IMG/VR virus record: IMGVR_UViG_2524614847_000004
Location: 1 to 64,000 of that record
DNA: 64,000 nt
Reading direction: 5' to 3' (one strand)
DNA from: a virus
Lineage: Duplodnaviria; Caudoviricetes
The notes beneath the pieces are model-generated. The model was not told the DNA's origin. It ran no database searches and worked only from the letters and a program-made list of their open reading frames with translations. Position 1 is the stretch's first letter. Every line of letters begins with the position of its first letter. The translations under genes and the position numbers were made by a program. Positions 52,535 to 63,913 of the stretch are shown here, one piece after another.

Positions 52535-55015
52535 CTACGCTGTTTTTATATTTTCTTGTTCACTCTTTTCAATTACTATAATCTTACTTGCTACTCCTGT
52601 CATTTCAAACGTACCACTTTTTAAATCTTCTGTGAAATATGTTTCATTTTCTAACCATTGTCTAAACTCAATTGATTTTTTATCATTGGCAAAAGTCCAA
52701 TGTGGTGAAGAAATAGAAACAAGCGTACCACCATCTTTTAATAAATCATAAGCGTGTTTAATATGATTCTGTTCATCACTAAAAGGCGGGTTCATGATAA
52801 TGGCATCATAAATAGGTTCGCTCTGATACTGTAGAAAATCATCACCGACAAGATTATAGTCTTTAAGTAAAAGCAATTCTCGAAAAGTTGACATCTGCTC
52901 CACAACATCAATATCATTTGTAATTTTTCGCATTTCATCAGCGATGGCAGCAATTCCGGCAGAAGGCTCAAGCACTTTAGCCCCCTCTGTAATTCTTGCT
53001 AATTCAACAAGTCTTTGTGCAACCTCTGAAGGTGTGAAATTAATATCCCCTTTCTGCATCATCTTACATTCACGTTCAAGTCGTTTTATTTTCAGTGCTG
53101 TTTGATCTTGTGGTTTATTTACCATTTCAATAATTACTTTGTATTCCTCAATGGTTTTAACTAATTCTTGTGTATTTGAGATATTAGCCTTTTGAAGACG
53201 TTTCTGCGTTTTGGGTACTTCTTCATTCCACCACGAATTGGGATAATTCGGGTCTTTTTCTGGATATTCTACCGGTCTAGCAGAGGAAGGACGTTTTCCC
53301 TCTGGTAAATTCCACGTTTCAAACCGTTTATAGTAACTATGAATTGAATCACGGAATGATTCTGTTAATAGAGCAGCTTCAAGCGAAGTTAGTTCACGTT
53401 TCTGTGCTGTATCAAGAAGACAAGAAAGTATATTTAAGTCTAGCCTATAACCTTCTATTTTCGCCTCACGCCCCTCTTGTTCCCTCATACGCTTATAGGT
53501 ATTTGTTTTATAATCCCCCGACAATTTATCAATTTTGCTTTGTGTACTGCTAATTGCTTTGTTAATACGTTCTATAATTTTTGTTCTATCCTGCTGTTTT
53601 GGCCGTGCCGTTTGGTTATCCTGTGTGGATTCCTCTGTTGTTGTATCATTTCCTCTGTTTAACACTTCTGTAGGATCATATCTAAATATAAATCCATGCT
53701 TAAATTTAGAGTAGTAGGCATCGATTTTTTTCATTTCGACACGTAAAGCAGAAAAGTCTTCCACTTTTTCTCTAACTTTTACAACCCACATTTTAGAATC
53801 GTCTCTTGTGTCGGTGTCTTCTGCGATATCATAGGTATAGGCAGCTGAAACAGATACTTTCTGTTTATCTGCTTCTGAGGTAGTAGTTTCGGATTCTTTT
53901 CCCTTTGTCTCCGCTTTGCTATTTCCGATGGACTTTTTAACCACCTTTTCCACTTCATATGGTGTTTTTACTTCCTTAAGTTCACACCATGAAATAGCTC
54001 CCGTTTCAATCCACTTTAAGAACCTCTCTCCAAAGGTCCCCCATCTGTTGTTACTTGAGGCAATTCCGGTACACTCTTTTGTAAGTTTTCCATTGAGTTT
54101 ATAAGCATAAAAATAAGATCCGTTTTCCGTTTTGCTTTCATGAATGCGGTAAACAAGACCTTTATAACAATTGTGGTTATATCTAGTTTTAAGGATAAAA
54201 CACTGACCCTCTTTAATTTCTCCTGCCTCCACTTCTACGGCCTTTGTTTCGTTCTTATATTCTGTAACGATAACTTTCTCATAAATAGTACCGTCACCTT
54301 CTCCAAGAAGTCCACCGCAAGTGGTATCTATTTTATTGATAAACTTGTCAAAATCTGATTTTAATTTTAAAGTTTCTTCCTGTTCTTCCATCTGGTATTT
54401 GACTGATTTTTCTAATTCCACATCATTAAACCAACTACAACCGCTATTTGTTCTTCTTATCTGTTCTCTAATTTCATCCTCTGTTCTTTTCTTGTAGTTC
54501 TCCTTATAATAGATACCAGAATATTTTAAAATTCCGTTGCCTTTTGCAATGATGATTCCGTCTTTTTCTATGTGCCAGTTGCATTTATTGGGGTGGGCCT
54601 GATGCCCTGGGACCATTCCGACAACGACGTATTTCTCTTTGTTTTCTGTTGCTGCCTCTGCTTTCTTCTGCAATCGCTCAATCATCATTTTGGCGCTTTC
54701 CGCTTCTGATTCAGATGCTCCACGCTCTACGGTCATTGCTTCCAGCTTCTTAATTTTGTCTGTAATGCTTCTATCATAAGAAAAATCTGTATGATTATAT
54801 TTTCTAATTTCTTGCGGCTCCCTTGCTCCGCAAACGTCAACACAAAGAACATATCCGTTCTTTTCTGCAACACCGTCCCAAGTGGCAGGGCAATAATAAT
54901 CCGTCATGCTGTCGGACTCGTCTGGTGAATAGCCATATACTTTCCAACCATCAAGAGCCATTAACCTATGGGCTATCATCACTTTAACTTCCCTATAATC
55001 ATAATAATTTGACAT
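52535..55015 (-). CDS. large multidomain protein with C-terminal N6-adenine methyltransferase-like domain
   Basis: FTP, VLEPSAG (motif I), MNPPF (motif IV); DUF2786-like segment IKKLEAM..RGASESEAESA. Confidence 0.8.
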   Translation of the reverse strand: MSNYYDYREVKVMIAHRLMALDGWKVYGYSPDESDSMTDYYCPATWDGVAEKNGYVLCVDVCGAREPQEIRKYNHTDFSYDRSITDKIKKLEAMTVERGASESEAESAKMMIERLQKKAEAATENKEKYVVVGMVPGHQAHPNKCNWHIEKDGIIIAKGNGILKYSGIYYKENYKKRTEDEIREQIRRTNSGCSWFNDVELEKSVKYQMEEQEETLKLKSDFDKFINKIDTTCGGLLGEGDGTIYEKVIVTEYKNETKAVEVEAGEIKEGQCFILKTRYNHNCYKGLVYRIHESKTENGSYFYAYKLNGKLTKECTGIASSNNRWGTFGERFLKWIETGAISWCELKEVKTPYEVEKVVKKSIGNSKAETKGKESETTTSEADKQKVSVSAAYTYDIAEDTDTRDDSKMWVVKVREKVEDFSALRVEMKKIDAYYSKFKHGFIFRYDPTEVLNRGNDTTTEESTQDNQTARPKQQDRTKIIERINKAISSTQSKIDKLSGDYKTNTYKRMREQEGREAKIEGYRLDLNILSCLLDTAQKRELTSLEAALLTESFRDSIHSYYKRFETWNLPEGKRPSSARPVEYPEKDPNYPNSWWNEEVPKTQKRLQKANISNTQELVKTIEEYKVIIEMVNKPQDQTALKIKRLERECKMMQKGDINFTPSEVAQRLVELARITEGAKVLEPSAGIAAIADEMRKITNDIDVVEQMSTFRELLLLKDYNLVGDDFLQYQSEPIYDAIIMNPPFSDEQNHIKHAYDLLKDGGTLVSISSPHWTFANDKKSIEFRQWLENETYFTEDLKSGTFEMTGVASKIIVIEKSEQENIKTA

Positions 55016-55027
55016 TGTAATTACCTC

Positions 55028-58000
55028 CTAGTACCCATAATATAATTCAATTATTTTTTCCTTTTTTAGTTGTTCTATTTCTATATCATTTATATCTATA
55101 TTAGAGTATGACTGTTTTAAAGTTTCTTTGGCTTCAATTTCAACATCCGCAAATATAATGCCCACAACTATTTCTCCACAGTTTCTAAAGTAATATTTAT
55201 ACATACAATAACCTCCATTGTTTTTCATTTATTCCCACTATAAAAGCCACCGGAACATTGCCCAATGGCTTCAAACTGAAAATAAATATACTACATTGTT
55301 TCTCTTTGCTCTTCCGTATTAATTGCTAATGCTTCGTAATAATCTTCCTTGCAAATTTCATCACTTGTATTTGTTGGAGATATCCACTTGTCACAGCTTT
55401 TAAAATATTCGGAATATTGACAAAAATATTTTTCTGAGGTTTTAAAATACTCCCATCTTCTCCCGTTTTTCTTATCATATAAGAAAAAACTATTTTTATG
55501 TGTATGATAACCCATTTTATTACCCCCTTAAAAGTACTATTTATTTATCATAATTATTGATCCAGTCTTCCGCTGCTTCTACTGTATCAAATTCCATATC
55601 AGAGTCAGAAGGACTGCACATATAGGCATATTCCATATTATCAGGGTGTAAAACTGTTATGTTGAATCTATATTCTTCTAATTCCTTATTATTGTTCTGG
55701 TAAATTCCCCAACCTTTAAGCTTCTTAACTCTCTTCATTCTGTTTTACCTCTCAACCAAAGAATAGTTTTATTGTATTACGGTTCTTGAATCTCATTAGT
55801 AAAATTCTCTAACAGTATCTCCAATCGTAATATCTTAGCTTCTGTTTTTTTAAGTTTTTTTAAGGCAGTTTGAAAAGAAATGTCTGTTTGACATTCTGAT
55901 AAATCAATTATTATTTTTATCAAATCTTCTTTTCTGTCCTTTTCTGCTTCAATATCATCTGTTATTAGATTATAAATGTCTACATATAAATCCTTTGTCA
56001 TTTTGATTTACCCCCACTCATAAAATAAGAATTTCAAAGCAATCCCTTTTCAATCGCTTGTTCTGGCCTTCCTCCCTCAATATATGGAAGCAAGTGTCTT
56101 TTATCTTTACGATAGTTTCCTGCACCATCATATATAAGTGCGGATTGTTCGCTTGAAAGTTTCATAGCCTTGTTGTGGTATTTCGTACAATAAGGCTCTG
56201 TATTATTGCAAGCAGTAGTTAAACGCTGATATTTACGTATTTCAATTTCAAGTTCAATAATTCGTTTATCCTCTTCTGAAAGTTTCATGTATTTTCCCTC
56301 CATTTCTCAATGCTGCGGACTTGTGACCGCTTGACTTGTGTCAAGTGCATTAAAGCAGCCCTTATAGGCTGCTCCACTCTGCTTATACTACTTCAAGGTA
56401 TAAATCTTCAATATCGTAGTTTACTAACTCGTCTTTAAAATCTTTTCGCCAAGTGTTACAATTTTTCTCAAACCTTTTTTTATTGCAATCCCAAATTGAT
56501 GTAATAATGTCACCATTTTTATGCCTTATTTGTGCTTGATACTTATTATTTTTCACTGCCTTTCCCTCCATGAAATTCGGTTTTTATTTACCACACCTTT
56601 TCATATTTAACGGAACATACACGGTCAATTAAGTCATCAATTTTTATCTGTATTGGCTTTTCCAATTCTTTTAATTCTTCATAAGATATATCACAAATAT
56701 CATAAAGTGCATCTCGTTTATCCTGTAAAGCTCTTAATTCAGATTCTAGTTCTTGTAATATCTTTGAATTTTTATTGTTTAAAGTTCTTTCTCTGTAATG
56801 ATCTCTTCTTGTATAACCGATACTTCCATATAAGGACATCTTAATTTCTCCTATCAAATAATTGTTTCATTTAATAAATGTTTTAAAAATAAGAATTTCT
56901 ATCTTTTACTAATTCTTGTATTATTTCTTTCATTTCGCTGATATTATCAGCAACTCTTGACCTTGAAAATCCGTCTTTCCACTTCATTACAATACAAATA
57001 TGTTTATCTTCCCTATACAAATCACTAATAAGATGTTGATATTTTTTAGGAACATAATTGATTAAATTTTTCATTATATCACTCCCTTAATAAATTTGAA
57101 TATTCTATTTCACTTCTATAAAATGTTTAGTTATGCCTCTACCACTTCTAAAATATATTTTCCGTTATCGGCTTTATGCACATTAAATTTCTTAACACAC
57201 TGAAACTTTAATGGAATTTCTGAAACTGAAAAGGAATATAAGAACGACATATTATCATTGTAAAATTCCACTGTTTCAATTTCTTCTCCGTACATAAGCA
57301 TATCAATCAATTTTTCTAAGTTAATCTTATTTGTTTTCATCTTCAGTCCTCCCAATGAAATGGATATTCTATGCCACTTCTATATCATTGATGTACGTCA
57401 ACGTATTTGTTCTCCAGTGACCAGCTTCTATATACTCTGCCTGAATGTTTTCCGCGTAGCCGTACATATTCAAATTATGCACCGATATTCTTAAGCCTGA
57501 TAATTCCATAATGCAATACTTTGTTTTGCCTGTATCCTTGTTTAATACTTTGTAAGGGATAAAGTCCAGATAGACAAAGTACTTTTTCCCTTCCGTACTT
57601 GACATAGCATCACATACCGCAAAGCCGTCTATAATTCCGGTTTGTTTCATTGCCTGATCGTGAATTGATTCCACGATATCCGTCGGAATTTTGCTTTTAA
57701 GTAATGAAAAATCGTATAAATACTTTTTATTGTTGGTAAATTCCTTCTTGTTTTCCTTCAGATCTGGAAATGACTTTTTCATTTTCGCCATGCTCGGCAG
57801 ACAGTTCAATGTATTGTATTTGTTCATTTTAAAATCTCCCTTTCAAAAGTTTAAAATCGTACCGCCTAGATGAATTTTCTGTACTCCGGTATGTCCTGTT
57901 TCTACATTCTCAAAAACTAAAGTTTCCGATTCGATTTTAATATTTGGTGACATGATGTTTAATATCTCTCTGCACCTTTTTGCTGATAATGTAGGCATGT

Positions 58001-58091: not shown

Positions 58092-58168
58092 ATTACCGCC
58101 TACTTTCTGGACATTTATTTTCTTAACAAAAATGGACTCATAACATTTGACCGTTACAAGCCCTACTT

Positions 58169-59080
58169 TTAAACTTTTGCTTCTTCTTCAATTTTCAAAT
58201 CATGAAACATTTCGCTAGGTTCCAACTCGTAATACTCGCATAAGGCCGAAAATGCTTTAATAACGCATTGCCATTCTTTTTCATTTACGTGTTGTATCCA
58301 TGGTTGCTTTCCTCTGCTCTGTAAATCAATATGGAAACCATTCTTTAGCTGCTTGTACAACTCGCTCCATGCTTTACCTACTGTGATATGGGCATATGCT
58401 GCCATCTTACGGACTGCAAAGTTAATGCGTCCCCTATCGTCCCATTTAAGAATACCGTTTGCAAGTGCTTTCTTTGATTCTTCCAGTTTCGCTATGTGCC
58501 GATTTTTAAAGTCCATCATCTTAGTGGTTGCTATCATGATTGCCGTAGGGTCACCGCTTGCATAAGCCATACCAACAGATAAGGCAAGGGATTGTTCCTC
58601 TGTTATATCCATTGTTTTTACTTCGTTTGAAGTCTTTTCTTCTATATTGAGTAGTTGTGTGCGGATCTCCTTTGCTATCTCTGAATCTCTAAGTAGCATT
58701 CCGATTCTTAATATTGCCCGGCGAGATAAAAGCGTATTACCTCTATTGCTGAAACGCATACCATTTGCTTCGAAACCACCGCGAAAATTAGAAGGTTGCA
58801 AGTTGCAACTTTCTAAAAATCCCTTAGTTTCTTTACCTGTCATCGGTGATATTCCGTCTTCTTCTAGTTCGTCACGACTACGGTATAATATTGCTTTTAT
58901 GGCTTCTTCTCCTACCTCGTAAAAATCCGCTACTTGTTTAACTGTTGCTAATTCAGTGCCAGGAATAAGAAGTAACTTTTTGACCTTATCCAAAATTTCC
59001 ACTTTAGCAACTAATTTTTCCCGTAATTCCTTGCTTTCTAATAATTCATTTTCCTTCATATGTTTATTTCCTTTCTGCAA
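58169..59080 (-). CDS. phage antirepressor-like DNA-binding protein
   Basis: ATVKQVADFYEV...DELEEDG...LLSRRAILRIGMLLRDSEIAKEIR resembles antirepressor N-terminal domains. Confidence 0.6.
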   Translation of the reverse strand: MQKGNKHMKENELLESKELREKLVAKVEILDKVKKLLLIPGTELATVKQVADFYEVGEEAIKAILYRSRDELEEDGISPMTGKETKGFLESCNLQPSNFRGGFEANGMRFSNRGNTLLSRRAILRIGMLLRDSEIAKEIRTQLLNIEEKTSNEVKTMDITEEQSLALSVGMAYASGDPTAIMIATTKMMDFKNRHIAKLEESKKALANGILKWDDRGRINFAVRKMAAYAHITVGKAWSELYKQLKNGFHIDLQSRGKQPWIQHVNEKEWQCVIKAFSALCEYYELEPSEMFHDLKIEEEAKV

Positions 59081-59437
59081 TATTACTCACTTTAGTAAGT
59101 ACTTATACAGGCGATACAATGTAAGAATATACATATAATCATCTGCATAATAGATACTAAATTTAATTTTCGTCAAACTCTTCGTAGTCGCTAAACACGT
59201 TTTGGAGTCTCTTTTTATGCAACTTTGTAATATCCTTTATAATCTTGTCCCTTTTATCGAAAAAAGTTGTTTCAAAAAGTTCATTAGTAATTGCTATGAT
59301 CTGTGCAGCCTTTAAGATTGTTAAAACATCTTTTTCAGCCTCTAGCCCTCTAAAATTCAAAAGTTCCTTTGCTTCTAATACCATATCATTAACTAATTCA
59401 TACATTTCAGTTCCTCCTGTTTTTTATCAGATACTAA

Positions 59438-60358
59438 CGCACACAAAAGCCAATGATTTCAAAATAAGAAAAGCCAATCAATGAAAGATTGTCTAGCAGA
59501 GCCTCCCGTGATGGGTAGTTGTCAAGAGCTTCCAATAATCAACTTGATTTCATACGTTCTGAATATATTTGACTACACGCAATCAGTAATAAGGATTGAG
59601 GAGTATACAATCCAAGAACCGATATATAGTGCCTAGTTTACGTGCGTGGTGTAACTGATAAAACCTATAACAAAATAGCCATATCAACGATATTTCAGGG
59701 CTTGTCATTGTGATGCCTGAATGATGTTTTAATGGCTACAAATAAATCTTAATTGCGTTATTCCGTACTAATTTGAATTACCTATAACAAATAGGATTTT
59801 GCTTTCCGTTCTCTTTGGTTGCCTACTGCTTCATAGGCTCGTTGTTCCGTCCTCTGCTTGTCCAGTCTCTTTATCTGGAAGTAATATAATTAAGTGGTGT
59901 ATGCTCCCTTATGATTCCTCTGTGGGGTTATTCGCTTTATTCGCTCCCGTCAATGACCACCTTCTCACAGGTCTGCTTGTTTCTCCCATGTGACATCATT
60001 CACTAGTTAGCTAGGGTAGAAACCGTATAGTTAGGGTACACCTATTGCGCAGTTTCATATTTTTCAGGAATTATTTATCTGTCCTCATATCCCTTTGCCC
60101 TCATGCAACTATTGTCAAGGTAACAATTTCGGATAAAAGTATTTTCTCCTTAATTGATTCACCTATAACATGGTTACACTACTCCAATTGCTCCAGATAA
60201 AACCGTTATTACATATGTGCGTTGTCAGGGTTCGCTATAGCCTTACGGCCTGTCCATCACATGCTCCGTGGACGTTTCAGTCTCTGTTGCGTGATCCGTT
60301 CATTTTGTGGCCAGTTCCACGACTGGAAAAGATATTACTTAAAGGAAATTTGTGTGCG
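59438..60358 (-). ncRNA. large (~920 nt) structured non-coding RNA candidate
   Basis: No minus-strand ORF of 60 aa or more; higher GC; terminal 10-bp inverted repeat; many internal stems; consensus promoter upstream. Confidence 0.7.
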
Positions 60359-60489
60359 ATTGCACTTGAAAAGCGAATAAAAATGTATTAGAATGATTAT
60401 ACGCTTGTATATCAAGTTGTGTGAAAAGGTGGTCTGATACTTTGGTCGGTGTCTGTGACCGCCTTTTCTATTTCCTTTTGATAATACAA

Positions 60490-60518
60490 GTATATCATGA
60501 TTTTAAATCAATGTCAAC
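60490..60518 (-). promoter_or_regulatory. sigmaA promoter upstream of the large RNA
   Basis: TTGACA-17nt-TATACT. Confidence 0.8.
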
Positions 60519-60524
60519 TGTTTT

Positions 60525-60824
60525 CTAAAGATTTTCTCTATTTTTTAGTTGTTTTTCTTTTTGCAATATAGCATAATCATCATAGGTCATATCATTGTAC
60601 TGCAATATATCTCCTGGCTGACATTTCATTACTCTACAAATAGAATCGATAGTTTTTAGTGTTACCGACTCTTGCTTAGATATTTTTGTCATAGTCGCCG
60701 AAGATAAACCAGCGGCATTTTTAAGCTGTTCCCTTGTCATTCCTTGTCGGTTGAGCATATCAAGTAATTTATAGTATGTTATCATTTTAACACCTCCTGT
60801 CATTTCAGTAACATTGTACCACAT
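60525..60824 (-). CDS. Cro/XRE-family HTH regulator
   Basis: ITYYKLLDML...LSSATMTKI...IDSICRVMKCQPGDIL; probable start is the ATG at about 60785. Confidence 0.88.
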   Translation of the reverse strand: MWYNVTEMTGGVKMITYYKLLDMLNRQGMTREQLKNAAGLSSATMTKISKQESVTLKTIDSICRVMKCQPGDILQYNDMTYDDYAILQKEKQLKNRENL

Positions 60825-61174
60825 TCATGGTAAATCCAACAGAATATATTAAATGAAAATAATTGATCTAATACATTTCTATTCACTTTTCAAGGTACAG
60901 TTTGCACGTTTGGAATTAACACTTGAATAAATCATAGAAATGTGATATGATATGAAACTAGTAATGTGATCACATTTTCAAGTGTGTTCCCAAAAGGGTC
61001 TGACTATTGCGAGTAGTCAGGCTCTTTTTGGTTATTCCGTTCATTTTGGTACAAGTGATCCACTTGTTAAACCGTCTATTTGCTTTGATGCTACAGGCCC
61101 ACCCTGATAGACTAAAAAAGAGTGTAGGCCCTTAATAATTCAATAGGCTTTACACTCTTTCATGATATATAAAT

Positions 61175-62397: not shown

Positions 62398-62787
62398 TCT
62401 ATGTAAGGCTGAACTAGTACGTATGTTCTTTGTCCGTGAGTCTAATAATAGTATGTATGTTCGACTTTGTCAAGTGAGAAATATGGAATAAACTGTATAT
62501 TTTTTGGTTACTATTGGATATCGTGTCATTTATATTGATATGATATGATGGAACGTGTCGGAATATGATAGATTGATATGAATTAATTGTTGATGGGATA
62601 TGATGGTGGTTGTACTGATTGTACGTGATGTTATTTGGCTCATATACGGCTTGTAATGGTATGAATGATAAAGTGTAAGGGTAGAGGTTATAAGGCCCTA
62701 TATGAGTCTATAAATGCGTTGTATTAATAAAAGCTGAGTGATAAATGAATATCATGATATATCACAAGAAACCCTGATATAGCACAA

Positions 62788-62980
62788 TAGTATCTTTTCG
62801 ATACTAAGTATACTTTATATAGTTAATATCTTTTTTATACTTAAATCATTTATATGTCTAATTACTTTCATACGTAATATATCATAGGGCGAATTTGATA
62901 CTAAGTGTATTTCGGTATGTTAGTATATATTATATAGTCAGTATCTTTTTTATACTATTGGTCAAAAAGATACTATTGTA
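62788..62980. repeat. cluster of AGTATC-N5-(G/T)ATACT palindromic repeats
   Basis: TAGTATCTTTTCGATACTA, AATATCTTTTTTATACT, AGTATCTTTTTTATACT plus GATACT half-sites. Confidence 0.65.
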
Positions 62981-63913
62981 ACGAACCTTGCCAAACTTAC
63001 AGACATATCATATCAGACTTGACGATACCTGACTATATTAAGGCATTGTAACCACTGCCCATTTGCTTGCTATAGTGATTCACTTACCCATCTTTTCACA
63101 ATTTTATTATCTGATAATATACACCATTAAAACTACAATTCACTACAATTCATTAATCATATCAGCCCATTATACAATATGTACAAATTCAACCATTACT
63201 AACTGTGCACTATTTTCACTATCATTGCACTAAACAAGAGTTTACCGCAGAGATATATAATAGCATACATTGAACATGTAATTATGCCCTATTAGATTAA
63301 GATACATATGCCTATTCGTTGTATACTATTTCATTACCCATGACCGGGGGTGTATTTACATTTTGAGACTGTTTTCACATGTCGGAATACCACATATCAG
63401 TTCCACTCACACATCAAGTTGAAATTTCAACCTCTTTTATTGTAAAACCATCCACCTATTGTGACTACAATTAACAAAATTATCAGACACGATAAAATCA
63501 TCATAATTTCATGTCTCAACTACATTTCTATCACAATCATTATCTAATTGTCTATACAATTCCAAAAATCACACAAAATGAGTTCGATAGTGAGTTCGAA
63601 GGAACACTTATAAAATATGGCCAAATTGAATTTACAGACAATTCAAAATCAGCACTTTTCACTCTCGGAAGTCGAACAAACCCTTGTAAAATAAGGCTTA
63701 TTACGAACTCACCCACATTTTCTTAAAAATCACATCTCTGATCTCTCTCCCACCATCACTCACACACCCAACAAACCAATACAGAATAAGCATTCGTTTC
63801 CTATATAATGTAAAAAATAATCTTTTCTACCGAACTCAACATTTTCACCATGTCCAAAATGATCGTTCTTATTGTGTATCCCATGGCAGAAATTTAAGGT
63901 CCTTAAAATTTTT

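What the first reader, a model, noticed from the sequence alone, without database searches (positions are those of the whole stretch)
59438..60358. Large ornate non-coding RNA (~920 nt) near the head of the ~60-kb leftward transcription unit
Seen: no plausible minus-strand gene, and a consensus promoter at 60490-60518. The ends pair through a perfect 10-bp inverted repeat (59438-59447 / 60349-60358), and another 10-bp long-range pair joins 59870-59879 and 60192-60201. There are many local stems (CCAGU/ACUGG, GUCCA/UGGAC, GGCC-GUAA-GGCU, GCCUA/UAGGC, UAGCCAU/AUGGCUA, GGAUUG/CAAUCC, CACGCA/UGCGUG) and an internal ACCTATAACA repeated three times. Established: Firmicutes phages carry giant RNAs of unknown function (GOLLD, ROOL). 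I cannot assign the class, and I see no group II domain V. Inference: a new large RNA, possibly a processive antitermination element.
Basis: partly seen in the sequence, partly recalled or inferred. Interest (0 to 1): 0.8.

Follow-up and report, generated by a model that had tools for sequence, protein, structure and literature searches.

The report
Long structured phage leader RNA
This gene-free kilobase is most likely a long, folded, untranslated leader RNA, paired with a small antisense RNA at its start, that controls entry into the early genes of a large phage of low-GC Gram-positive bacteria; it matches no known RNA family, but it does not look like one giant ornate RNA.

Summary
The sequence facts hold. 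Window 59406-60524 has no credible gene on either strand, and a near-consensus promoter (60517-60489, minus) fires into it. The 10-mer is present three times. Perfect inverted repeats are enriched (6 vs 0.98 expected). No Rfam family matches here or in the relatives.

The unit is wider than reported: a ~1.08-kb leader (60482-59406, minus) that runs into an 80-aa ORF and an antirepressor-like gene. Six related IMG/VR phage records carry an ORF-free 0.75-1.26-kb leader at the same place. A seventh variant sits in soil metagenome contigs. Homology between them is patchy.

Several local hairpins keep pairing through compensatory changes. Whole hairpin domains are swapped or missing in relatives. 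Hairpin domains fold better on the minus strand. In one pair of relatives the leader is better conserved than the adjacent gene.

The whole-region fold z is only -1.35, and unbiased substitution tests are mixed.

New here: all six homologues examined carry a promoter-like site facing the early promoter. The four antisense RNAs folded (~76-148 nt) each contain a strong hairpin followed by a U tract.

Best reading: a cis-acting leader with countertranscript control. Antitermination is plausible but untested.

The parts
59406..60482 (-). Whole predicted untranslated leader RNA (~1.08 kb), from just downstream of the early promoter to the start codon of the 80-aa ORF
   Evidence: ORF-free. The promoter lies upstream. 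No minus-strand terminator was found inside. ORF-free leaders occupy the same position in 6 relatives.
60489..60517 (-). Early promoter (both hexamers, 17-nt spacer, TG extension)
   Evidence: 11 of 12 consensus matches. An equivalent promoter is present in L070, L071, L072, L073 and L074.
60423..60468 (-). 5' hairpin of the leader; on the opposite strand it is the terminator hairpin of the antisense RNA
   Evidence: Stems differ in sequence but are kept in the window, L073 and L070. The + strand terminator scan hits 60443-60461.
60366..60394 (+). Antisense promoter facing the early promoter
   Evidence: 10 of 12 matches. Facing promoters occur in L073 (10/12), L070 (11/12), L072 (11/12), L074 (10/12) and L071 (9/12).
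60401..60482 (+). Predicted ~80-nt antisense (counter-transcript) RNA: small 5' hairpin, long terminator hairpin, U-rich tail
   Evidence: Fold -28.6 kcal/mol, z -5.75, 0 of 200 shuffles as good. L073 (z -3.92) and L070 (z -4.25) have the same two-hairpin layout. The ends are inferred, not measured.
60365..60400 (.). One arm of a 36-nt inverted repeat (86%); the other arm is at 60859-60894 upstream of the Xre gene. Probably shared operator or promoter sequence.
   Evidence: second match; I1, I3, I15, D2.
60342..60372 (-). 31-nt block identical in L073. It contains a 12-nt palindrome (60354-60365) just upstream of the antisense promoter's -35. Likely a DNA operator rather than an RNA stem.
   Evidence: Alignments; coordinates read.
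60311..60326 (-).
   Evidence: Predicted in the window/L073 alignment with one pair changed on both sides (blk1).
60230..60273 (-). Two adjacent hairpins. The second (60239-60250) has a GNRA tetraloop. The block 60230-60251 is shared with L071 and L072.
   Evidence: A pattern scan finds it only in the records of L004/L077, L071 and L072; the window's own record may be left out of these scans. The tetraloop differs but stays GNRA. z -1.66 on minus vs -0.09 on plus.
60104..60178 (-). 75-nt self-contained hairpin domain
   Evidence: All 58 paired bases pair inside the segment. In soil contigs of runs X3 and X4 exactly this segment is replaced by 129 other letters. z -4.45 on minus vs -1.65 on plus.
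59870..60035 (-). 166-nt variable segment. It holds 59955-59969, which is 14/15 complementary to 60420-60434.
   Evidence: Replaced by 64 letters in X3 and X4. The complementarity is reached by 0 of 500 shuffles in the window but has no counterpart in L073 or L070.
59841..59878 (-). Small hairpin (59862-59878) plus a highly conserved single-stranded block shared with the otherwise unalignable L003/L070 leader
   Evidence: blk2b.
59781..59838 (-). Two small hairpins (59821-59838 and 59781-59795) separated by purine-rich linkers
   Evidence: The first has one compensatory pair in L073; the second is identical in L073 (blk2).
59675..59739 (-). 65-nt hairpin domain
   Evidence: z -4.14 on minus vs -2.68 on plus. 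It lies in the 168 nt (59573-59740) that L073 lacks.
59576..59648 (-). 73-nt hairpin domain with an inner hairpin at 59593-59613
   Evidence: z -3.25 on minus vs -0.78 on plus. Absent from L073. One soil-variant change turns an A-U pair into G-U on this strand only.
59423..59572 (-). 3' block conserved with L073 (~79%), ending in a junction motif (59423-59448) found before the first ORF in all six homologues
   Evidence: It has no fold signal of its own (z +0.31).
59163..59405 (-). 80-aa ORF of no known family; a variable cassette
   Evidence: No Pfam or PHROG hit. Only 45-70% identical to L004, while both flanks are identical. In L072, L073 and L074 no ORF of 45 aa or more lies between the leader and the Ant-like gene.
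58169..59080 (-). Antirepressor-like gene, the conserved downstream partner of the leader
   Evidence: Weak PHROG matches to anti-repressor families. It is the anchor of all related loci.
60525..60824 (-). Xre/Cro-type HTH gene directly upstream
   Evidence: Pfam HTH_26, E 8.5e-16. It is 100% identical to L004 together with the leader, as one module spanning ~61020-59411.
58134..58163 (-). First strong intrinsic terminator downstream (after the antirepressor-like gene)
   Evidence: 12-bp stem followed by a T run.

Best explanation
The finding is the body of a ~1.08-kb untranslated leader RNA on the minus strand (about 60482 to 59406). It is transcribed from a near-consensus promoter that sits between an Xre/Cro-type gene and an antirepressor-led block of early and replication genes in a ~135-kb phage of low-GC Gram-positive bacteria.

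Shown. The region is non-coding and matches no known RNA family. Six related phage records carry an ORF-free leader at the same position. Each of the six homologues examined has a second promoter-like site 90-570 nt downstream that faces the first. The four antisense RNAs folded (76-148 nt) each contain a strong hairpin followed by a U tract. The body consists of independently folding hairpin domains that are swapped, lost or kept as whole units among relatives.

Inferred. The leader acts in cis. The antisense RNA, or interference between the convergent promoters, sets how much transcription enters the leader. The structured body then acts co-transcriptionally on the elongating polymerase or on transcript stability. 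Together these decide whether transcription reaches the antirepressor-like gene and passes the terminator behind it. The Xre gene, both promoters and the leader travel together as one exchangeable module, which fits an immunity or decision function.
For: Non-coding and promoter.

No known family: Rfam gathering thresholds. Rfam at E<=10 gave 5 matches, the best 22.3 bits against a cut-off of 56. Relatives also give nothing. There is no DNA match among phages or plasmids.

Positional conservation: 6 of the 8 loci with the closest Ant-like gene (L070-L074, L077) have ORF-free gaps of 750-1263 nt upstream of the Ant-like gene; in L070, L071 and L077 a small ORF or cassette lies between. These are linked by a network of local homologies.

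Module exchange: the window and L004 are 99.6% identical over 1130 nt. The identical tract also covers the Xre gene, while neighbouring genes are 45-93% identical.

Constraint: L071 vs L072 are 89.1% identical in the leader but 78.5% in the adjacent gene. The gene's mismatches fall 126/37/29 by codon position; the leader's fall 11/27/16.

Structure. RNAalifold on L071/L072 predicts 121 pairs, 0 broken, 2 changed on both sides and 12 on one side. Column-shuffle z scores on the gene strand are -5.26, -5.63, -2.87, -3.90 and -2.34; on the opposite strand they are -2.29, -5.45, -0.15, -2.41 and -0.36. Compensatory pairs occur in small hairpins of the window vs L073. A 75-nt segment replaced in the soil variant is exactly one predicted hairpin. 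Five hairpin domains fold better on minus than on plus.

Antisense unit: promoters; folds, z -5.75, -3.92, -4.25, -2.57.

Transcription: one 267-nt contig of a soil metatranscriptome covers 59421-59663. This is a weak hint only.
Against: The whole-region fold is unremarkable (z -1.35, 20 shuffles).

I also predicted the structure from one sequence and asked whether the other sequence's substitutions spare it. The gene strand beat random placement clearly in only some comparisons. Shuffles reaching the observed value were 0, 21, 69, 125, 172, 178, 293, 485 and 1979 of 2000. One opposite-strand test was also low (30 of 2000).

RNAalifold found as many or more compensatory pairs on the opposite strand for the window vs L073 blocks.

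Of the 13 soil-variant substitutions I could see (80 more were not shown), 9 are unpaired, 2 keep a pair and 2 break a pair on either strand.

Homology is patchy, and the middle of the leader is unalignable between the window and L003.

The domain boundaries used were chosen from the minus-strand fold, which favours that strand.

No sense-strand attenuator terminator was found in the window. Transcript ends, strand and abundance are unmeasured. The one RNA contig could be DNA carry-over. Some conserved pieces (the palindrome 60354-60365, the 36-nt inverted repeat) look like DNA operators rather than RNA structure.
Confidence: 0.5

Rival explanations
1. A discrete, trans-acting large structured RNA in the manner of GOLLD or ROOL. 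It would be released from the early transcript and have a function of its own: an assembly, a sponge for a host RNA-binding protein, or an anti-defence decoy.
For: Its size, its GC content raised above the flanks (0.40-0.42 vs about 0.31-0.33), a GNRA hairpin conserved across divergent members, and enrichment of inverted repeats. In L071/L072 the leader ends in a terminator-like hairpin with a U-rich tail just before the next gene; one pair in it changed on both sides, two pairs on one side, and its inner tetraloop stays GNRA. One 5-mer is enriched 13 vs 3.8 expected and occurs in 5 of 6 leaders. The same phages carry other known small structured RNAs: twister-P5 and skipping-rope.
Against: No Rfam match at any threshold. 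No long-range helix is supported in any relative. Closely related phages show mosaic presence and absence of blocks. The window has no 3' terminator. Known large ornate RNAs keep a conserved core, and none is evident here.
Confidence: 0.13
2. The conservation is at the DNA level. The region would be a protein-binding control region (operators, roadblocks, looping sites), or an origin or partition region, and the hairpins would be incidental palindromes.
For: The triple 10-mer, two copies of which sit in short dyad-symmetric contexts. The 12-nt palindrome lies inside the 31-nt block identical in L073. The 36-nt inverted repeat brackets the Xre gene. Block 59423-59572 is conserved but has no fold signal.
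Against: The hairpin domains fold clearly better on one strand. One-sided G-U changes were tolerated on the gene strand. There is no tandem iteron array here, whereas an iteron-like, AT-rich repeat region lies at 62400-63500. GC is raised rather than lowered.
Confidence: 0.13
3. A mosaic, largely functionless spacer. It would be remnants of exchanged cassettes and decayed small genes at a recombination hot spot between the immunity module and the antirepressor gene.
For: The composition is patchy. Cassettes clearly move through this spot: the 80-aa ORF in the window; a small-ORF cassette in L071 that sits elsewhere in L072; a two-gene pair in L003. The junction motif is duplicated at 59423-59448 and 59083-59114.
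Against: Phage genomes rarely keep a kilobase of junk. The leader is more conserved than the adjacent gene in L071/L072. Much of it is 94-97% identical in the soil variant, against 83-84% in the pieces that cover the Xre and Ant genes (piece counts). No small ORF hits Pfam.
Confidence: 0.12
4. A replication-control unit of the ColE1 or pIP501 kind (geometry recalled from memory). A long structured RNA, or the leader of a replication operon, would have its 5' end targeted by a short counter-transcript, with the small HTH protein upstream acting as the co-repressor.
For: The geometry is the same: a small HTH gene, a strong promoter, a long leader, and a convergent promoter ~100 nt inside that gives a short terminated antisense RNA. 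The downstream unit encodes replication proteins: ligase, Pol III alpha, a DnaB-like helicase. The Rfam ctRNA_pT181 model gives its only, sub-threshold, match on the antisense RNA (22.3 bits, cut-off 56).
Against: The first conserved downstream gene is antirepressor-like, not an initiator. The replication genes lie 40 kb away, behind terminators. A better origin candidate lies at 62400-63500. No attenuator was found.
Confidence: 0.06

Closest known systems
conAn2, the large antitermination RNA of pLS20-family conjugative plasmids (PMC8191782; outline and sections 22 and 26 read)
   Same: A non-coding stretch of several hundred nt near the head of a very long operon of a Gram-positive mobile element. 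Sequence conservation among relatives is poor (30-40% reported). It has local stem-loops and a GC-richer patch.
   Different: conAn2 is 260-600 bp, lies directly behind the conAn1 processivity gene inside the operon, and has proven antitermination activity. Here the element is ~1.08 kb and follows its own promoter. The upstream gene is an Xre-type HTH. No conAn1 relative was looked for, and no activity is known.
The 456-nt leader and 'zipper-type' attenuator of the pLS20 conjugation operon (PMC13401043; abstract and outline read)
   Same: A long structured leader that decides whether transcription enters a long operon of a Gram-positive mobile element.
   Different: The zipper attenuator is a defined three-part structure ending in an intrinsic terminator. 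No sense-strand terminator was found in the window's leader. Here a counter-transcript is predicted instead.
Counter-transcript control of leaders in Gram-positive plasmids (pT181, pIP501 with CopR and RNAIII) and ColE1 RNAI/RNAII (recalled; no paper read)
   Same: A small HTH gene upstream, a strong sense promoter, a convergent promoter inside the leader, and a short highly structured antisense RNA ending at a terminator near the sense start.
   Different: No sequence or model match (ctRNA_pT181 22.3 bits vs 56). The leader is three times longer. No attenuator was identified. The downstream gene is antirepressor-like.
RNA control of antirepressor operons in phages P22 (sar), P1/P7 (c4), P4 and N15 (recalled; no paper read)
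   Same: A small RNA encoded in or opposite the leader of the antirepressor operon sets immunity.
   Different: Those are Gram-negative phages with short leaders. No homology was detected in Rfam 15.
GOLLD and ROOL, large ornate RNAs of phages and prophages (PMC12286853 and PMC5737381; search listing and start of abstracts only)
   Same: Large, ORF-free, phage-borne, and GC-richer than their surroundings.
   Different: No match to any Rfam model. No conserved global core or supported long-range helices. The window's transcript has no discrete 3' end.

Membership tests
GOLLD / ROOL / OLE / HEARO / raiA and every other Rfam 15 family | Score at or above the family's gathering threshold against its covariance model | tested here: not met
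   The window at gathering thresholds gave 2 matches, both elsewhere: a tRNA and twister-P5. The region 59100-60700 at E<=10 gave 5 matches, all far below cut-off. The leaders of relatives gave none at gathering or at E<=0.1. That these named families are in Rfam is recalled.
Group II intron | Domain V / intron covariance model match, and usually an intron-encoded reverse transcriptase | tested here: not met
   No intron model match. No ORF in the region.
conAn2-type antitermination RNA | Lies immediately downstream of a conAn1 processivity gene within the operon | tested here: not met
   The upstream gene is an Xre/HTH_26 protein, and a promoter separates it from the leader. Homology of any window protein to ConAn1 was not tested.
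conAn2-type antitermination RNA | Lets RNA polymerase read through downstream terminators | not testable with these tools
   Downstream terminators exist at 58163-58134 and 45956-45928. Read-through is unmeasured.
conAn2-type antitermination RNA | A short GC-rich patch plus an essential stem-loop near the 5' end (PMC8191782, section 22) | tested here: inconclusive
   GC is raised to 0.40-0.42 over much of the region, and there are many stem-loops. No correspondence can be drawn without a model.
Counter-transcript-controlled leader (pT181 / pIP501 kind) | A convergent promoter inside the leader | tested here: met
   Window 60366-60394, 10/12. L073 10/12, L070 11/12, L072 11/12, L074 10/12, L071 9/12. 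Consensus matches only; promoter-like sites are common in AT-rich DNA.
Counter-transcript-controlled leader (pT181 / pIP501 kind) | A short, strongly folded antisense RNA ending at an intrinsic terminator | tested here: met
   Predicted folds have z -5.75, -3.92, -4.25 and -2.57 in 4 of 4 folded. L071 has an antisense-strand terminator at 5230-5204. L074 was not folded. No RNA data.
Counter-transcript-controlled leader (pT181 / pIP501 kind) | An attenuator (sense-strand terminator) downstream of the target | tested here: not met
   No minus-strand terminator between 59406 and 60490. In the window and L073 the 5' hairpin is itself followed by a short U run, but not in L070, L072 or L074 (read).
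Counter-transcript-controlled leader (pT181 / pIP501 kind) | Match to the Rfam ctRNA models | tested here: not met
   ctRNA_pT181 scored 22.3 bits against a cut-off of 56, E 5.5.

The most novel reading that the evidence does not exclude
A previously undescribed class of 0.7-1.2-kb modular leader RNAs in ~115-140-kb phages of low-GC Gram-positive bacteria. It would work together with a dedicated ~80-nt counter-transcript as an RNA-based decision switch. Once past the antisense checkpoint, the structured body would make the polymerase termination-resistant (a phage counterpart of conAn2, put or EAR). Transcription would then reach the antirepressor-like gene and pass the terminator behind it, into the replication genes. 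The hairpin modules would carry the specificity that distinguishes heteroimmune phages.
Probability: 0.22. Interest if true: 0.72.

Novelty: new variant of a known kind. Interest (0 to 1): 0.45.

Why it matters
If real, this would be a kilobase-scale cis-regulatory RNA with its own counter-transcript at the lysis-lysogeny control point of a poorly studied group of very large temperate phages. Their nearest sequenced relatives are the ~130-kb Clostridioides phages. It would extend two mechanisms to phages: RNA-based control of antirepressor operons, known so far from a few Gram-negative phages, and the large antitermination or attenuation leaders recently found on Gram-positive conjugative plasmids. 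It would also add a family that current RNA databases miss. It is a practical caution as well. The features that looked most ornate to the eye, the perfect long-range inverted repeats, are the ones that comparison does not support. The best-supported element, the antisense RNA, lay just outside the reported coordinates.

Tried and rejected
1. Known families. Rfam at gathering and at permissive thresholds on the window and on relatives: nothing in the leaders.

2. DNA similarity. Phages and plasmids: no match.

3. Pattern scans.
- The core motif in IMG/VR found only two known relatives.
- In species genomes it found 5 stretches. In metagenome contigs it found 57 stretches.
- On re-alignment none of these extends beyond 19-26 nt, so I treat them as chance.
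- Three further motifs found only known relatives, plus one 22-nt chance match, L142.

4. Protein-anchored searches.
- The Ant-like protein gave 3 loci and then 71 loci.
- Only 6 of the 71 carry a related leader. nhmmer with each leader as query found nothing in the other 65.
- The Xre protein found only the L004 record.
- The Ant-like protein was not found in G001 or in 401 genomes sampled from that genome's phylum at E<=1e-20. That sample may not include the host's lineage, so it shows nothing.

5. Coding potential. 0 of 9 small ORFs hit Pfam. A 55-aa ORF over the GNRA block in L071 is cut to 34 aa in L072 and is closed in the window (read).

6. The end pairing 59438-59447 / 60349-60358 and the pair 59870-59879 / 60192-60201: rejected as conserved helices (see observation check).

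7. A second copy of the element in the ORF-poor stretch 62400-63900: no similarity. That stretch looks like an iteron-type DNA region instead.

8. A cis 'mimic' of the antisense RNA at 59955-59969. It is significant in the window (0 of 500 shuffles), has no counterpart in L073 or L070, and lies in the segment replaced in the soil variant. I keep it as unexplained.

9. A CsrA-type sponge idea, from the enriched 5-mer. The enrichment is modest, the six sequences are related, and I did not pursue it.

10. Sequencing runs. Parts of the stretch without cover in runs X3, X4, X5 and X11 say nothing.

11. Literature. Five searches found no description of this element. The library is limited to open-access papers and preprints.

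Full report
**What is there.** The window is the first 64 kb of a 135.5-kb IMG/VR provirus record. Between an Xre/Cro-type HTH gene (60525-60824, minus; Pfam HTH_26) and an 80-aa ORF of no known family (59163-59405, minus) lie 1119 nt with no credible gene. The only minus-strand ORFs of 30 aa or more are 33 and 41 aa. None of 9 small ORFs on either strand hits Pfam at E<=1. A promoter matching 11 of 12 consensus positions, with a TG extension, sits at 60517-60489 and points into the gap. GC rises to 0.40-0.42 inside the gap, against about 0.31-0.33 beside it. The next conserved gene (58169-59080) is antirepressor-like by weak PHROG matches and is followed by a strong intrinsic terminator at 58163-58134. 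Further downstream the leftward genes encode a DNA ligase, a Pol III alpha subunit, a DHH protein, a DnaB-like helicase and an integrase-family protein. The nearest GenBank phages are ~130-kb Clostridioides phages of the phiCD211 type and a Psychrobacillus phage, at only 28-30% amino-acid identity. 'A phage of low-GC Gram-positive bacteria' is therefore fair. 'One 60-kb transcription unit' is not shown, because there are internal terminators and many promoter-like sites.

**Checking the observation.** The 10-mer occurs three times here and nowhere else in the window as an exact match. The region holds more perfect 10-mer inverted-repeat word pairs than shuffles do: 6 against 0.98, and 3 of 300 shuffles reach 6. 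The whole-region fold is not exceptional, however (z -1.35 on minus, -0.34 on plus, 20 shuffles each). No Rfam family matches at gathering thresholds. At E<=10 the five matches are all noise-level, the best being 22.3 bits against a cut-off of 56.

**Relatives.** blastn against GenBank phages and PLSDB plasmids found nothing. Exact-motif scans of species genomes and metagenome contigs gave only chance matches. Anchoring on the Ant-like protein gave 71 IMG/VR loci. Of the eight with the closest Ant gene, six (L070-L074, L077) have an ORF-free gap of 750-1263 nt upstream of it; in L070, L071 and L077 a small ORF or cassette lies between. These six gaps and the window's are linked by a network of local similarities. 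The other 65 loci show none.
- L077 (the same record as L004) is 99.6% identical over 1130 nt. The identical tract runs from about 61020 to 59411 and includes the Xre gene and both promoters, while the genes on either side are 45-93% identical. This is therefore a recently exchanged module of Xre gene, promoters and leader. It is not evidence of special constraint on the leader alone.
- L073 shares three blocks (60520-60295, 59884-59741, 59572-59423) and lacks 60294-59885 and 59740-59573.
- L003/L070 shares the promoter, the 5' hairpin and a 65-nt core (59905-59841). Its middle is unalignable.
- L071, L072 and L074 are more distant. They share a GNRA-hairpin block (60230-60251) and the 3' junction.
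- A further variant sits in contigs of two soil metagenome runs. It is about 89-97% identical in the shared parts. Segment 60104-60178 is replaced by 129 other letters, and 59870-60035 by 64.

**Evidence for RNA-level structure.**
(a) The 75-nt segment replaced in the soil variant is exactly one self-contained predicted hairpin.
(b) The 168 nt that L073 lacks hold two hairpin domains plus a linker.
(c) For L071 vs L072, RNAalifold predicts 121 pairs. None is broken, 2 changed on both sides and 12 on one side. The terminal hairpin before the Ant gene has a U-rich tail, one pair changed on both sides and two on one side; its inner tetraloop changes but stays GNRA.
(d) Column-shuffle tests of the consensus fold give z of -5.26, -5.63, -2.87, -3.90 and -2.34 on the gene strand. 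The opposite strand gives -2.29, -5.45, -0.15, -2.41 and -0.36.
(e) Small hairpins at 60311-60326, 59821-59838 and 59505-59515 each keep pairing through a change on both sides in L073.
(f) Five hairpin domains fold better, relative to shuffles, on the minus strand than on the plus strand: -4.45 vs -1.65, -4.14 vs -2.68, -3.25 vs -0.78, -1.66 vs -0.09, and -1.87 vs +0.09.
(g) In L071/L072 the leader is 89.1% identical while the adjacent gene is 78.5% identical. The gene's mismatches concentrate at one codon position (126/37/29); the leader's do not (11/27/16).

**Evidence against, or weak evidence.** I also took the structure from one sequence only and asked whether the other sequence's substitutions avoid breaking it. 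Results are mixed. On the gene strand, random placement did as well in 0, 21, 69, 125, 172, 178, 293, 485 and 1979 of 2000 trials. On the opposite strand the figures were 30, 297, 358, 568, 744, 835, 988, 1002 and 1886. For the window vs L073 blocks, RNAalifold finds as many or more compensatory pairs on the opposite strand. Only 13 of the soil-variant substitutions were listed. Of these, 9 fall in unpaired positions, 2 keep a pair and 2 break one, on either strand. The domain boundaries came from the minus-strand fold. Block 59423-59572 is conserved but has no fold signal (z +0.31). The supportable picture is therefore a chain of local hairpin modules, not a globally closed ornate fold.

**The 5' end, outside the reported coordinates.** A second promoter-like site faces the early promoter in all six homologues examined. 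It lies about 90-300 nt downstream of it, or about 540-570 nt in L071, where a small-ORF cassette lies between:
- window 60366-60394, 10/12
- L073, 10/12
- L070, 11/12
- L072, 11/12
- L074, 10/12
- L071, 9/12, with a 12-bp antisense-strand terminator nearby

The predicted antisense transcripts of the window, L073 and L070 (76-86 nt) fold into the same layout: a small 5' hairpin, then a long hairpin, then a U-rich tail. Their z scores are -5.75, -3.92 and -4.25, with 0 of 200 shuffles as good. The 148-nt stretch folded for L072 contains a 16-bp hairpin followed by a U run (z -2.57). The stems differ in sequence between phages while the helix is kept. The conserved purine-rich stretch just after the sense start is the complement of the antisense U tail. 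The 'first hairpin' of the leader is thus best read as the terminator of a counter-transcript. The only Rfam model that touches it, far below threshold, is a plasmid counter-transcript model.

The antisense promoter region is one arm of a 36-nt inverted repeat whose other arm lies upstream of the Xre gene. A 12-nt palindrome inside a 31-nt block identical in L073 lies just upstream of its -35. These look like shared operator DNA.

**How it most likely works.**
- Shown: the anatomy above.
- Inferred: the early promoter makes a ~1.08-kb untranslated leader that continues into the 80-aa ORF and the antirepressor-like gene, since no terminator is found in between.
- Inferred: the counter-transcript, or collision between the convergent promoters, limits how much transcription enters. 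The structured body acts in cis on elongation or stability.
- Because a strong terminator follows the antirepressor-like gene and others lie further on, a termination-resistance function like that of conAn2 is plausible. In its authors' words conAn2 is a large, poorly conserved RNA element of 260-600 bp at the head of long conjugation operons (PMC8191782, abstract and sections 22 and 26). Nothing here tests this.
- The same plasmid family also has a 456-nt attenuating leader (PMC13401043, abstract). Long regulatory leaders are therefore an established solution in Gram-positive mobile elements.
- The layout of small HTH gene, sense promoter, leader and convergent counter-transcript also recalls pIP501, pT181 and ColE1 replication control. 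RNA control of antirepressor operons recalls P22, P1 and P4. All of these are recalled from memory, not read.

**Transcription.** The only expression hint is one 267-nt contig from a soil metatranscriptome. It covers 59421-59663 and carries the soil variant's substitutions. It could be DNA carry-over, and it gives no strand information.

**Novelty and verdict.** No database family, no similar phage or plasmid DNA, and no description in five literature searches of an open-access library. I rate it a new variant of a known kind: a counter-transcript-controlled, structured leader of a mobile element's long operon. It is unusual for its size, its modular make-up and its position before an antirepressor-like gene in large phages. 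It is found in only seven phage records plus one metagenomic variant. Confidence is about 0.5 that it is a transcribed, structured, cis-acting leader with an antisense partner, and about 0.2 that the body is an antitermination device.

Noticed in passing
window 56315-56383 (-); also L003 7263-7329, L072 7894-7963 and 9020-9089, L073 7748-7817: A type-P5 twister ribozyme (52.9 bits against a cut-off of 37.6) lies about 3 kb downstream of the leader in an intergenic gap. It is conserved in related phages, and L072 has two copies.
   Followed up: partly
window 62400-63500 (+), continuing in L145: An ORF-poor ~1.1-kb stretch follows a 74-aa rightward gene. It has G/T-rich short repeats (about 62530-62660) and several copies of a short inverted-repeat unit (about 62780-62980). 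It is ~80% conserved in L003 and L004. It looks like an iteron-type origin or partition region and shows no similarity to the leader.
   Followed up: partly
L145 9162-9241 (+), which is G000 70161-70240: A skipping-rope RNA (Rfam RF02924, 60.3 bits against a cut-off of 36.7) in the rightward gene cluster of the same phage.
   Followed up: no
window 60365-60400 and 60859-60894; related short repeats at 60920-60943 and 60975-60984: A 36-nt inverted repeat (86%) brackets the Xre gene and the early promoter, and further copies of its first ~10 nt occur nearby. These probably form a set of operator sites shared by the antisense promoter and the region upstream of the Xre gene.
   Followed up: partly
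window 59955-59969 vs 60420-60434, and 59927-59946 vs 60370-60381: Two neighbouring stretches of the leader body are complementary to two stretches of its own 5' end (14 of 15 nt, and 10-11 nt twice). The first copies part of the antisense RNA. It is reached by 0 of 500 shuffles, but there is no counterpart in L073 or L070, and it lies in the segment replaced in the soil variant. Unexplained.
   Followed up: partly
L071 4867-5195; L072 3361-3794: A cassette with a 47-aa lysine-rich, hydrophobic small ORF and a second small ORF sits inside the L071 leader. In L072 it sits 1.5 kb further upstream. By eye it resembles a small membrane peptide; this was not tested.
   Followed up: no
L003 4253-4902: A 122-aa and a 94-aa (HTH) gene pair is inserted between the leader and the Ant-like gene. 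By eye it looks like a toxin-antitoxin pair of the HigB/HigA kind; no family search was run.
   Followed up: no
L076 2653-4387: Two ORFs (132 and 367 aa) upstream of the Ant-like gene resemble IS200/IS605 TnpA and TnpB by eye (no family search was run). This locus and L075 lack the leader.
   Followed up: no
window 59423-59448 and 59083-59114: The short junction motif that precedes the first ORF after the leader in all six homologues occurs twice in the window, once before the 80-aa ORF and once before the Ant-like gene. The 80-aa ORF may have been inserted by recombination at this motif.
   Followed up: partly
window 52535-55015 (-): An 826-aa protein with a C-terminal DNA methyltransferase-like region. 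PHROG matches reach E 6.6e-63; Pfam matches are only sub-threshold.
   Followed up: no
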